A DNA stretch of 4,718 bases, from the IMG/VR virus record IMGVR_UViG_2778261352_000002. One strand, 5' to 3'. Numbering within the stretch: position 1 is the stretch's first letter; each line of letters begins with the position of its first letter. Under the pieces are notes generated by a model that was not told the origin of the DNA, did not search any database, and saw only the letters and a list, made by a program, of their open reading frames with translations. Both the position numbers and the translations under genes were made by a program. Positions 1 through 3,069 of the stretch are shown here, piece after piece. Origin of the DNA: a virus. Taxonomy: Duplodnaviria; Heunggongvirae; Uroviricota; Caudoviricetes.

Positions 1-435
1 CGAACTGCTTCCGTGGCGCATAGCACTGCCAGATGAATAACACATCCCCGTCAATACGGCCCTCGCTGTACGCTTACCTTTGTTGCAATGAGGGCAGATC
101 AAAAGGGCACCTTTTTGTACTCTTGAAAAACTGTGTTCTGACTCTTGGGTGCAGTTTGGGCAGGAACATTTAACGAGATAATTACGGCGTGATTTTGAGT
201 TTTTACGTTCTGACATAGGCTTTTCCTGTATAAATGGCCGTATACAGTACACTAAATATGAAAACATTTCTCGTATTATTATTTTATATATGACTTTCTT
301 TCAAAATAATTACCCACATTTTTAATGTGTATGTTTTTTTAGCGCCGTTGAGAACAACGTGTGCTGTCAAAACTACCCCGTAGACTCCGATCTTTTCAAA
401 CATATTGCACCATCCGTGTACATCGGGGTGAGGAT

Positions 436-2203: not shown

Positions 2204-2209
2204 GGTGTT

Positions 2210-2354
2210 CTGGTTTGTTACAAATTTATCTGAAGCAGTCATTGTTATAATTTTATTATTTGTATCTCTTGAGATTTCCTTGTTGGTTTTTCTCTCTGAT
2301 ATTTTTTTTCGGACCATTCTGCCCAAGGGCTAATTTCTTCAAAAGGTAATAATT
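2210..2354 (+). promoter_or_regulatory. Long 5' untranslated leader of the cold-shock gene (likely cold-responsive mRNA structure)
   Basis: About 145 nt between the predicted transcription start and ATG 2355. SD region AAAAGGTAATAATTATG resembles the cspA leader/RBS, and the coding start ATGTCTAACAAAATGACTGG contains a downstream-box-like sequence. Confidence 0.4.
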
Positions 2355-2567
2355 ATGTCTAACAAAATGACTGGTTTAGTGAAATGGTTTAACCCTGAAA
2401 AAGGTTTTGGTTTCATCACGCCGAAAGATGGCAGCAAAGATGTGTTTGTCCATTTCTCAGCAATTCAGAGCAACGATTTCAAAACATTAACTGAGAATCA
2501 GGAAGTTGAATTTGGTATTGAGAACGGACCTAAAGGTCCTGCCGCTGTTCATGTAGTGGCGCTTTGA
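2355..2567 (+). CDS. cspI: Cold-shock protein, CspA family (CspI-like), 70 aa
   Basis: ORF 2355..2567. [70 protein letters not shown] contains the RNP1 (KGFGFI) and RNP2 (VFVHF) motifs of the cold-shock domain. AAGG SD sits 8 nt upstream. Confidence 0.95.
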
Positions 2568-2600
2568 GGTAGACAATATTACAAACCATATTCACTTTAG

Positions 2601-2766
2601 ATGCCCGTGTTGTCATGGTTCCCAGTATAGAACATCATCTTTTGATGTTTCTGACATGAATCCTTTCGGGGCAAAATGTATCTTTTGTAAATCAATGATG
2701 ATTACATTTGATAATATTTCACAATACTTAAATGCCAGCCGTCTGTCGTTGGATTTAAAAAAGTGA
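2601..2766 (+). CDS. Possible small Cys-rich (zinc-ribbon-like) ORF downstream of cspI; start codon unresolved (possible frameshift at CCC 2604-2606), may be a pseudogene or unannotated small protein
   Basis: The frame beginning with codon TGC 2602 reads RCPCCHGSQYRTSSFDVSDMNPFGAKCIFCKSMMITFDNISQYLNASRLSLDLKK and stops at TGA 2764-2766, 6 nt before a strong intrinsic terminator. It has no in-frame ATG/GTG/TTG before the Cys cluster; the first in-frame ATG is 2656. An ATG at 2601 sits one base out of frame, and deleting one C from the CCC run would give a 55-aa ORF, MPCCHGS... No convincing SD. Confidence 0.25.
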
Positions 2767-2771
2767 AAATG

Positions 2772-2794
2772 AAGGCTCCTTCGGGAGCTTTTTT
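2772..2794 (+). terminator. Rho-independent terminator (GCTCC-UUCG-GGAGC stem-loop followed by a T6 tract)
   Basis: Stem 2775-2779 pairs with 2784-2788 around a TTCG tetraloop, extendable by flanking A/T pairs. T-run at 2789-2794. Lies 200 nt downstream of the cspI stop and directly after the small Cys-rich ORF. Confidence 0.65.
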
Positions 2795-2838
2795 GCTTGG
2801 TATCTATTCGATGGATACTCACATACTACGGTAACATC

Positions 2839-3069
2839 ATGAAAAAAATCATAGTTTTTTTTAACTCTGAACCTGCAGTGGTAGTGCCAGCGATGACTGG
2901 AGTTAACACCATCATGCGTGAATATCCAAATGGCGAAAAAACACACCTTACTGTAATGGCCGCAGGGTTTCCATCTCTGACCGGAGATCATAAAGTCATT
3001 TATGTAGCCGCGGATCGACATGTTACTTCAGAAGAAATTCTGGAAGCAGCAATAAGGCTCTTGAGTTGA
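2839..3069 (+). CDS. ynfN: Small hypothetical protein (up to 76 aa); positional equivalent of ynfN between cspI and gnsB; alternative starts at 2893 and 2914 (51-aa version)
   Basis: ORF in the 2797..3069 frame. The TTG at 2797 is unlikely; the first ATG is 2839 (no clear SD), and ATG 2914 has GGAG 11 nt upstream. The protein (MKKIIVFFNSEPAVVVPAMTGVNTIMREYPNGEKTHLTVMAAGFPSLTGDHKVIYVAADRHVTSEEILEAAIRLLS) is soluble-looking with no recognisable motif. Symbol assigned only by synteny. Confidence 0.5.
   Translation: MKKIIVFFNSEPAVVVPAMTGVNTIMREYPNGEKTHLTVMAAGFPSLTGDHKVIYVAADRHVTSEEILEAAIRLLS

What the first reader, a model, noticed from the sequence alone, without database searches (positions are those of the whole stretch)
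2557..2766. Small Cys-rich (zinc-ribbon-like) ORF with no canonical start, between cspI and a strong terminator
An open frame encodes ...RCPCCHGSQYRTSSFDVSDMNPFGAKCIFCKSMMITFDNISQYLNASRLSLDLKK, with a CxCC...CxxC arrangement typical of small zinc-ribbon proteins. It ends 6 nt before a GC-rich tetraloop terminator (2772-2794), the layout of a real terminal gene in an operon. The frame has no ATG/GTG/TTG upstream of the Cys cluster, while an ATG at 2601 is one base out of frame next to a CCC run. It is therefore a frameshifted pseudogene, a non-canonically initiated small protein, or a short 36-aa product from ATG 2656. Cotranscription from the cspI promoter would make it cold-inducible.
Basis: seen in the sequence. 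Interest (0 to 1): 0.5.

Follow-up and report, generated by a model that had tools for sequence, protein, structure and literature searches.

The report
Known cold-shock small gene ynfQ
The Cys-rich open frame is the already annotated E. coli Qin-prophage gene ynfQ (YmcF family, 62 aa); it looks start-less only because it begins at a rare ATT codon just after the cold-shock gene cspI.

Summary
A frame open from 2557 to 2766 encodes a CxxC…CxxC peptide, has no ATG/GTG/TTG ahead of the cysteines, and ends 5 nt before a hairpin with a U-tract.

It is not new. Window 2540-2800 is 100% identical to E. coli K-12. There the CDS at window 2578-2766 is ynfQ (b4724; UniProt YNFQ_ECOLI; RefSeq "cold shock small protein YmcF"). 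It matches Pfam PF23641 end to end (E 1.7e-32).

The start is ATT at 2578, with GAGGT 8-12 nt upstream overlapping the cspI stop codon. In 76 loci from other enterobacterial species the homologous codon is ATT (51), ATC (4) or ATG (21), and the AGG of the ribosome-binding site sits at -11 or -10 in every one. Third-codon-position diversity is 0.49, against 0.14 and 0.07 at positions 1 and 2.

The frameshifted-pseudogene and 36-aa readings are rejected. The non-canonical-start reading is correct.

Function is still unknown. The protein is probably a small zinc-ribbon-like metal binder made from the cspI cold-shock transcript.

One side result may be new. ATT/ATC occurs in all 45 loci with an intact csp gene 9-10 nt upstream. 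ATG occurs only where that csp gene is lost or decayed.

The parts
2209..2594 (+). cspA-type thermoregulator mRNA element (5' UTR plus the cspI coding region); its 3' end overlaps the first 17 nt of ynfQ
   Evidence: Rfam RF01766, 108.7 bits against a gathering score of 78, E 5.4e-28, model positions 1-428 of 428. The cspI 5' UTR is reported as an experimentally characterised RNA thermometer in PMC13271884.
2355..2567 (+). cspI CDS (70 aa cold-shock protein), the upstream cistron
   Evidence: ORF list; annotated as cspI in RefSeq genomes and in K-12.
2566..2570 (+). Shine-Dalgarno GAGGT of ynfQ, overlapping the cspI stop codon TGA (2565-2567)
   Evidence: Read from the sequence. The AGG lies at -11 (70 loci) or -10 (6 loci) from the homologous start in all 76 loci. 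The csp stop lies 9-10 nt before the start in all 45 loci with an intact csp.
2578..2580 (+). ATT initiation codon of ynfQ
   Evidence: The annotated CDS start in EC11, IAI1 and K-12 maps here, and the K-12 CDS translates mechanically as ITNHIHF.... The homologous codon is ATT 51, ATC 4, ATG 21 in 76 loci.
2578..2766 (+). ynfQ CDS (62 aa; YmcF-like family)
   Evidence: Pfam PF23641, E 1.7e-32, positions 1-62 of 62. The exact protein is named YNFQ_ECOLI and seen on at least 1000 contigs. 132 homologues found. Purifying selection shown.
2602..2613 (+). First Cys knuckle, C9-P-C11-C12
   Evidence: C9 and C12 invariant, C11 nearly invariant in the 23-sequence alignment.
2677..2688 (+). Second Cys knuckle, C34-I-F-C37
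   Evidence: C37 invariant, C34 nearly invariant. The AF2 model places beta strands just before both knuckles.
2771..2795 (+). GC-rich UUCG-loop hairpin plus U-tract (intrinsic-terminator-like)
   Evidence: -14.9 kcal/mol, z = -3.2. Different hairpin sequences followed by T-runs sit after the stop codon in Escherichia, Citrobacter, Salmonella, Klebsiella and Kosakonia loci. A crude test passes in 40 of 76 loci.
2769..2834 (+). ynfR (21 aa), starting 2 nt after the ynfQ stop; its coding sequence runs through the hairpin
   Evidence: Annotated in RefSeq and K-12. YnfR-SPA is reported to rise strongly after cold shock in PMC6001520.
2839..3069 (+). ynfN (76 aa in PGAP genomes; 51 aa from ATG 2914 in K-12)
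   Evidence: It is co-induced with cspI and ynfQ in PMC11228462.

Best explanation
Window 2578-2766 is ynfQ, a real and already catalogued 62-aa protein gene of the YmcF-like family. It lies in a Qin-type lambdoid prophage and is the paralogue of chromosomal ymcF, which follows cspG.

Shown here:
- It is under strong purifying selection in this frame.
- It starts at ATT 2578. A fixed-distance Shine-Dalgarno sequence overlaps the cspI stop codon 10 nt upstream.
- It lies on the same strand, downstream of a cspA-type thermosensor leader and cspI, and upstream of a hairpin with a U-tract.

Inferred:
- It is transcribed with cspI from the cold-shock promoter and leader, so it is made mainly after a temperature downshift.
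- Ribosomes finishing cspI reinitiate, or are recruited locally, at the weak AUU. This would tie YnfQ output to CspI translation and keep it sub-stoichiometric.
- C9/C12 and C34/C37 form a four-Cys zinc-ribbon or rubredoxin-like metal site. This site holds a small beta core that displays conserved aromatic and basic residues (Y17, R18, K33, F36, K38). A poorly conserved C-terminal helix follows.
- The protein acts by binding a nucleic acid or a larger protein partner during cold adaptation. The target is unknown.
For: Identity: window 2540-2800 is 100% identical to K-12. K-12 annotates ynfQ b4724 at the corresponding coordinates, and that CDS translates to the same peptide starting with ATT. 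RefSeq genomes call it 'cold shock small protein YmcF'. Pfam PF23641 matches at E 1.7e-32. The exact sequence is named YNFQ_ECOLI.

Coding: nucleotide diversity by codon position is 0.137/0.072/0.487 in the core. pN is 0.05-0.15 against pS 0.6-1.0.

Start: ATT/ATC/ATG alternate at one homologous codon, and the AGG is fixed at -11 or -10. Twenty-six ATT loci, this window included, have no in-frame canonical start before the upstream stop.

Operon: the cspI-ynfQ-ynfR-ynfN-gnsB layout parallels cspG-ymcF-ymcE-gnsA. The Rfam cspA thermoregulator matches 2209-2594. cspI, ynfQ and ynfN show near-identical fold changes in PMC11228462. cspG, cspH, cspI, ymcF and ynfQ are co-repressed in PMC11728337.

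Coupling: all 45 loci with an intact csp have ATT/ATC and none has ATG. ATG appears only where csp is absent or decayed.

Against: I could not read any primary experimental paper that shows N-terminal mapping or ribosome footprints at the ATT. The start rests on the curated annotation plus the comparative evidence gathered here.

The csp/ATT association is phylogenetically clustered, representing perhaps five independent csp losses. It has exceptions: Pseudescherichia and Atlantibacter keep ATT without an intact csp.

No conserved RNA structure sequesters the SD or start region, so coupling by helix unwinding is unsupported.

In vitro, AUU mRNAs compete worse at low temperature (PMC5499595). 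This argues against AUU itself being a cold-favouring signal.

The hairpin may terminate only partially, because ynfR and ynfN downstream are co-induced.
Confidence: 0.9

Rival explanations
1. Frameshifted pseudogene: the ancestral gene began at ATG 2601 and a 1-nt indel near the CCC run put the Cys cluster out of frame.
For: ATG 2601 is one base out of frame and sits next to CCC.
Against: Residues 2-8, encoded upstream of 2601, are conserved as protein (H6 nearly invariant, F7 invariant). The trinucleotide is NTG across species (ATG 22, CTG 22, TTG 10, GTG 10). That is simply the wobble base of Arg8 plus the TG of Cys9. Of 76 loci, 69 keep a 62-codon frame from the homologous start. In the window the ATG 2601 frame stops after 9 codons.
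Confidence: 0.01
2. Only the 36-aa ORF from ATG 2656 is translated, and the upstream Cys knuckle is untranslated.
For: It is the only canonical-start ORF in this frame.
Against: Codon 27 is ATG in 1 of 64 distinct sequences and is usually AAA. The most conserved segment, residues 5-40, starts upstream of it. Purifying selection covers codons 2-46. There is no SD-like motif in front of 2656.
Confidence: 0.03
3. Initiation occurs at the second ATT (2590, codon 5) or at another near-cognate codon rather than at 2578.
For: ATT 2590 is also in frame and downstream of the SD.
Against: Codon 5 is CTC in ymcF and is never ATG in other genera. The codon that becomes ATG in Klebsiella, Raoultella, Enterobacter, Leclercia, Silvania and Shimwellia aligns with 2578. 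The SD spacing fits 2578 (AGG at -11) and not 2590.
Confidence: 0.03
4. A CspI-YnfQ fusion is made by a +1 ribosomal frameshift at the end of cspI, so that no separate start is needed.
For: ynfQ is in the +1 frame relative to cspI. In some species the ymcF frame stays open for 29-94 codons upstream, across the csp gene.
Against: In the window the ynfQ frame is closed by TAG 2554-2556, leaving only three codons in which to shift. The upstream open length varies from 3 to 94 codons without conservation. Orthologues without any csp use ATG at the same codon.
Confidence: 0.02
5. The ORF is non-coding cspI 3' UTR and the open frame is chance.
For: None beyond the missing canonical start.
Against: Pfam E 1.7e-32; 132 homologues; the codon-position substitution pattern.
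Confidence: 0.005

Closest known systems
YnfQ (b4724, UniProt YNFQ_ECOLI) of E. coli K-12 cryptic prophage Qin
   Same: Identical DNA over window 2540-2800 and an identical 62-aa protein. Same neighbours: cspI upstream, ynfR, ynfN and gnsB downstream.
   Different: Nothing within the gene. Elsewhere the window's source genome differs from K-12: an ISEc8 end at 1-77 interrupts ynfU.
YmcF (chromosomal paralogue downstream of cspG; Pfam PF23641 YmcF-like)
   Same: 62 aa, about 65% identity. Same ATT start with an AAGGT SD overlapping the csp stop. A hairpin plus U-tract follows, and gnsA/gnsB lie further downstream.
   Different: ymcF is present in 5414 of 5426 E. coli genomes. The Qin copy is present in about 2150. 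The C-terminal 15 residues differ. ymcE overlaps the 3' end of ymcF, whereas ynfR follows ynfQ.
infC (IF3) and pcnB, the classical AUU-initiated E. coli genes
   Same: A conserved AUU/AUC start. infC also lies a few nt after the stop of an upstream cistron and is cold-induced (PMC5499595, PMC3592434).
   Different: There is no evidence that ynfQ is repressed by IF3. The proteins are unrelated. PMC5499595 still lists AUU as used by only two E. coli genes, so ynfQ and ymcF are additional annotated cases.
Small zinc-ribbon domains (TFIIE-alpha, TFIIB, eL43, the MqsA N-domain, NrdR) and rubredoxin
   Same: Two CxxC knuckles separated by about 21 residues on short beta hairpins. These domains are the only folds recovered. 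PMC13348028 describes a rubredoxin-like topology.
YnfU, the other small Cys-rich 'putative zinc-binding' protein of Qin (window 46-216, minus strand)
   Same: A small CxxC…CxxC protein in the same prophage, found through small-protein screens.
   Different: No detectable sequence similarity to YnfQ. It has a canonical ATG start, lies on the opposite strand and is not linked to a csp gene.

Membership tests
YmcF-like small proteins (Pfam PF23641) / YnfQ | Full-length match to the family HMM above the gathering score | tested here: met
   111.8 bits against a cutoff of 27, E 1.7e-32, protein 1-62 aligned to profile 1-62.
YmcF-like small proteins (Pfam PF23641) / YnfQ | Sequence identity to the reference protein YNFQ_ECOLI / b4724 | tested here: met
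   The exact-sequence look-up returns 'Protein YnfQ … RepID=YNFQ_ECOLI'. The K-12 CDS translates identically.
YmcF-like small proteins (Pfam PF23641) / YnfQ | Conserved Cys pattern C9-x-x-C12 … C34-x-x-C37 | tested here: met
   C9, C12 and C37 invariant; C11 and C34 at least 90% conserved in 23 sequences.
YmcF-like small proteins (Pfam PF23641) / YnfQ | Position immediately downstream of a CspA-family gene | tested here: met
   The cspI stop lies 10 nt before the start. The same holds in 45 of 76 loci from other species.
YmcF-like small proteins (Pfam PF23641) / YnfQ | Cold-shock induction of the protein | not testable with these tools
   Indirect evidence only: the RefSeq product name, the cspA-type thermoregulator upstream, and transcript co-regulation with cspI.
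Zinc-ribbon / rubredoxin-like metal-binding fold | Two CxxC knuckles on beta hairpins forming one tetrahedral site | tested here: inconclusive
Zinc-ribbon / rubredoxin-like metal-binding fold | Bound Zn2+ or Fe | not testable with these tools
   Requires purified protein and metal analysis.
ECs_2282 family putative zinc-binding protein (NCBIfam NF047912) | Score above the curated cutoff | tested here: not met
   17.8 bits against a cutoff of 37.
AUU/AUC-initiated, IF3-discriminated genes (infC type) | Phylogenetically conserved AUU/AUC at the initiation position | tested here: met
   ATT 51, ATC 4, ATG 21 at the homologous codon.
AUU/AUC-initiated, IF3-discriminated genes (infC type) | Expression repressed by IF3 through the start codon | not testable with these tools
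   Needs ATT-to-ATG reporters with altered IF3 levels.
Frameshifted pseudogene | Disrupted frame relative to intact orthologues | tested here: not met
   The frame is intact and 62 codons long in 69 of 76 loci. The window's sequence is identical to the K-12 functional annotation.

The most novel reading that the evidence does not exclude
In this family the AUU/AUC start may be a maintained regulatory device rather than an accident. It is kept wherever the gene sits 9-10 nt behind an intact csp cistron (45 of 45 loci). It is replaced by AUG in three of about five lineages where that csp gene was lost or decayed. This suggests that YnfQ/YmcF synthesis depends on reinitiation by ribosomes terminating on the Csp cistron. 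It may also be gated by the temperature-sensitive discrimination of AUU by IF3. If so, protein output would track Csp translation in the cold. That would make ynfQ and ymcF the third and fourth functional AUU genes of E. coli, with a cold-shock logic parallel to infC.
Probability: 0.3. Interest if true: 0.45.

Novelty: already known. Interest (0 to 1): 0.15.

Why it matters
The finding matters little as a discovery. The gene is in the K-12 reference annotation, in UniProt and in Pfam.

It has practical value as a worked example of how ATT-initiated small genes escape ORF finders. Six of nine phage records that carry the gene leave it unannotated, and the ORF listing misses it.

The gene's function is also still open. 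It is a conserved, probably metal-binding 62-aa protein co-expressed with cold-shock RNA chaperones. The link between start codon and upstream csp seen here gives a testable hypothesis about how its expression is controlled.

Tried and rejected
- **Primary literature on the ATT start.** I looked for a paper documenting the ATT start or the discovery of the gene. Nakahigashi 2016 (PMC4909307) and the Weaver 2019 preprint do not mention cspI, cspG or this gene. Zhang 2018 (PMC5910227) and Wang 1999 (PMC93551) are not held. VanOrsdel 2018 has no supplementary files held. The 'ynfQ' in its Table 1 is a different 37-aa protein, now named ynfT.
- **NCBIfam.** Only a sub-threshold ECs_2282 hit was found.
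- **RNA structure around the start.** I tested whether a conserved structure hides the SD and ATT, which would explain translational coupling. The single-sequence fold has z = -1.55. The 15-species consensus fold shows no pairing across the SD or start. This idea is rejected as unsupported.
- **Relation to YnfU.** No alignment was found between YnfQ and YnfU.
- **Terminator scan.** The consensus scan did not list the + strand hairpin. I relied on the fold and on the conservation of hairpins after the stop codon.
- **Rejected readings.** The pseudogene, 36-aa, second-ATT and CspI-fusion readings were each considered and rejected; see the rival explanations.

Full report
**1. What is in the sequence**

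Translating window 2554-2766 on the + strand gives [69 protein letters not shown]. The frame is open from 2557 to the TGA at 2764-2766. It contains no ATG, GTG or TTG before the first Cys codon at 2602. The mechanical ORF list reports only the 36-aa piece from ATG 2656.

ATG 2601 exists one base out of frame. Five nucleotides after the stop codon there is a hairpin, GAAGGCUCC-UUCG-GGAGCUUUU, followed by more U residues. It folds at -14.9 kcal/mol with z = -3.2.

**2. What it is**

The window is a Qin-type lambdoid prophage of E. coli. Window 2300-3100 matches 2112 E. coli genomes over at least 80% of its length, many of them at 100% identity. Window 2540-2800 is 100% identical to K-12.

In RefSeq genomes the CDS at window 2578-2766 is annotated ynfQ or ymcF, 'cold shock small protein YmcF'. 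It lies between cspI (2355-2567) and ynfR (2769-2834), and ynfN and gnsB follow. In K-12 MG1655 it is ynfQ, b4724, 'protein YnfQ'. That annotated CDS begins with ATT and otherwise translates to exactly the window's peptide.

The 62-aa protein matches Pfam PF23641 'YmcF-like' from end to end (E 1.7e-32). The exact sequence is in the protein collection under the name YNFQ_ECOLI, on at least 1000 contigs.

The paralogue ymcF sits in the same arrangement behind cspG: cspG-ymcF-ymcE-gnsA. It is present in 5414 of 5426 complete E. coli genomes.

One naming trap needs noting. The 'ynfQ' in Table 1 of VanOrsdel et al. 2018 is a 37-aa protein between ydfJ and ydfK. It is now called ynfT.

**3. Independent test of the start codon**

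I retrieved 80 loci, one genome per species, and located the conserved F-R-C-P-C-C-H-G-S-Q motif in 76 of them. The codon six positions upstream of the conserved Phe is homologous to window 2578. It is distributed as follows:

- ATT in 51 loci: Escherichia, Citrobacter, Kosakonia, Scandinavium, Yokenella, Trabulsiella, Pseudescherichia and Atlantibacter.
- ATC in 4 loci: Salmonella and Siccibacter.
- ATG in 21 loci: Klebsiella, Raoultella, Enterobacter, Leclercia, Silvania, Shimwellia and C. sedlakii.

A codon that alternates between ATG and ATT/ATC is what a start codon looks like. An AGG sits exactly 11 nt (70 loci) or 10 nt (6 loci) upstream of it. Twenty-six of the ATT loci, this window included, have an in-frame stop 3-21 codons upstream with no canonical start in between.

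In the window the Shine-Dalgarno sequence is GAGGT at 2566-2570. It overlaps the cspI stop codon TGA at 2565-2567.

**4. Independent test of coding**

Across 64 distinct 62-codon sequences, nucleotide diversity at codon positions 1, 2 and 3 is 0.228, 0.152 and 0.534. In codons 2-46 it is 0.137, 0.072 and 0.487. Pairwise pN is 0.05-0.15 in the core, while pS is 0.6-1.0, which is saturated.

C9, C12 and C37 are invariant, and C11 and C34 are nearly so. The segment IHFRCPCCHGSQYRTSxFD…NPxGAKCIFCK is almost unchanged from Escherichia to Dickeya.

**5.

- *Pseudogene.* This fails. Conserved residues 2-8 are encoded upstream of ATG 2601. That triplet is NTG across species (ATG 22, CTG 22, TTG 10, GTG 10). 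It is the wobble base of Arg8 followed by the TG of Cys9.
- *36-aa product.* This fails. Met27 is unique to the Qin copy (1 of 64 distinct sequences, usually Lys), and the conserved core lies upstream of it.
- *Non-canonical start.* This is correct.

I also considered a start at the second ATT (2590). That codon is CTC in ymcF and is never ATG elsewhere. A +1 frameshift fusion with CspI is also unlikely, because the frame is closed by TAG 2554 and the upstream open length varies from 3 to 94 codons.

**6. Expression context**

Rfam's cspA thermoregulator model matches 2209-2594 at 108.7 bits against a gathering score of 78. The cspI 5' UTR has been characterised experimentally as an RNA thermometer (PMC13271884).

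Transcriptome tables show cspI, ynfQ and ynfN moving together: 6.5/4.3/38, 5.9/4.0/42 and 5.8/9.9/51 (PMC11228462). cspG, cspH, cspI, ymcF and ynfQ are co-repressed by butanol (PMC11728337). YnfR-SPA, encoded immediately downstream, rises strongly after cold shock (PMC6001520).

Co-transcription with cspI, and therefore cold induction, is thus well supported. It remains an inference here, because I saw no transcript mapping.

The hairpin after the stop codon recurs with different stem sequences in many genera. A crude test for it passes in 40 of 76 loci. The ynfR coding sequence runs straight through it, and ynfN beyond it is co-induced, so termination there is probably partial. From general knowledge, CspA-family proteins have been reported to act as antiterminators at intrinsic terminators. 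That could apply here but was not tested.

**7. How it probably works**

An AlphaFold2 model built from a 23-sequence alignment has mean pLDDT 73, rising to 86-90 for residues 11-40. It shows short strands before each CxxC knuckle and a low-confidence C-terminal helix.

My best reading is a four-Cys (C9, C12, C34, C37) metal-stabilised mini-domain. It exposes conserved aromatic and basic side chains and binds RNA, DNA or a larger protein during cold adaptation. The fold assignment is probable. The target is unknown.

**8. A side result that may be new**

All 45 loci in which an intact csp gene ends 9-10 nt before the start use ATT or ATC, and none uses ATG. Among the 31 loci without an intact csp, 21 use ATG and 10 use ATT.

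- The 21 ATG loci are Klebsiella, Raoultella and Shimwellia, which carry visibly decayed csp remnants; Enterobacter, Leclercia and Silvania, which have none; and C. sedlakii, which has a fused or frameshifted csp.
- The 10 ATT loci are Pseudescherichia and Atlantibacter.

These represent only about five independent losses, so the association is suggestive and not proven. It fits reinitiation-dependent use of a weak AUU. Reinitiation and de novo initiation contribute roughly equally at infC-like UAA-GGU-AUU junctions (PMC3592434).

IF3 discriminates against AUU, and that discrimination is reported to weaken in the cold. However, AUU mRNAs compete poorly at 20 °C in vitro (PMC5499595). The direction of any temperature effect is therefore open. 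I found no conserved RNA structure masking the start. PMC5499595 still lists infC and pcnB as the only AUU-initiated E. coli genes.

**9. Verdict**

The feature is the already known gene ynfQ. Interest is low. The residual value lies in the start-codon and csp correlation and in the gene's unknown function.

Noticed in passing
window 1-77 (junction near 78), affecting ynfU at 46-216 minus strand: The left end of the window is not Qin sequence. Bases 1-77 match the end of an IS66-family ISEc8 element, with up to 19 copies per genome and many on plasmids. Homology to K-12 and EC11 starts at about 78, inside the 3' end of ynfU. The window's YnfU therefore loses its normal C-terminus (…CNKVFQTNLKAVA*) and reads on as …CNKGKRTARAVLTG… with no stop inside the window.
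   Followed up: yes
window 2769-2834 versus hairpin 2771-2795: The annotated 21-aa gene ynfR starts 2 nt after the ynfQ stop, and its first nine codons encode the terminator-like hairpin. YnfR is reported as cold-shock induced, so the hairpin must be read through at least partly in the cold. Csp-mediated antitermination is a possible explanation but was not tested.
   Followed up: partly
L006-L085, codon homologous to window 2578: The start codon correlates with the state of the upstream gene. An intact csp 9-10 nt upstream goes with ATT/ATC in 45 of 45 loci. A lost or decayed csp goes with ATG in 21 loci and ATT in 10. The loci are phylogenetically clustered, so there are only about five independent events.
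   Followed up: partly
L022, L026, L035, L039-L041, L043, L054, L077 (about 330 nt upstream of the match): Klebsiella, Raoultella and Shimwellia ymcF homologues are preceded by a recognisable but stop-riddled remnant of a csp gene (…PAVVNVVAKRG*). The small Cys-rich gene has outlived its csp partner and carries an ATG start there.
   Followed up: partly
L021, L023, L024, L027, L029, L031, L055 (Pseudescherichia), positions 1976-2003: These copies keep an ATT start (ACT ATT ATT ACA) without any csp upstream. They have a short out-of-frame ATG-AAA-AAA-GG ORF starting 19 nt upstream that overlaps the SD and the start. It might be a leader ORF that substitutes for csp coupling. This was not examined further.
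   Followed up: no
phage records H72-H75, H77, H79: Six of nine phage records holding a ynfQ-like gene, among them Escherichia phages PhiR42_1, PhiR63_1, 2H10 and mEp460_ev081, have no feature annotated over it. The likely reason is that gene callers do not consider ATT starts.
   Followed up: no
window 2839-3069 versus 2914-3069: ynfN is annotated as 76 aa (from ATG 2839) in PGAP genomes but as 51 aa (from ATG 2914) in K-12 MG1655. The true start is unsettled.
   Followed up: no
NC_000913.3 1632890-1633003 (L005 591-704): There is a naming conflict. The 37-aa protein called YnfQ in VanOrsdel et al. 2018 Table 1 is now ynfT (b4748), and ynfQ (b4724) is the 62-aa Cys-rich protein. Literature searches on 'YnfQ' mix the two.
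   Followed up: yes
L007 and L061: Contigs binned as 'MAG: Veillonella parvula' and 'MAG: Mucilaginibacter sp.' carry ynfQ or ymcF loci that encode the same proteins as the E. coli copies. They are almost certainly Enterobacteriaceae contigs mis-binned into those MAGs.
   Followed up: no
P0118 (Shimwellia blattae) and P0115, alignment A2: One homologue has Tyr in place of Cys34 and another has Arg in place of Cys11. If they are functional, the extra Cys11 may serve as an alternative metal ligand.
   Followed up: no
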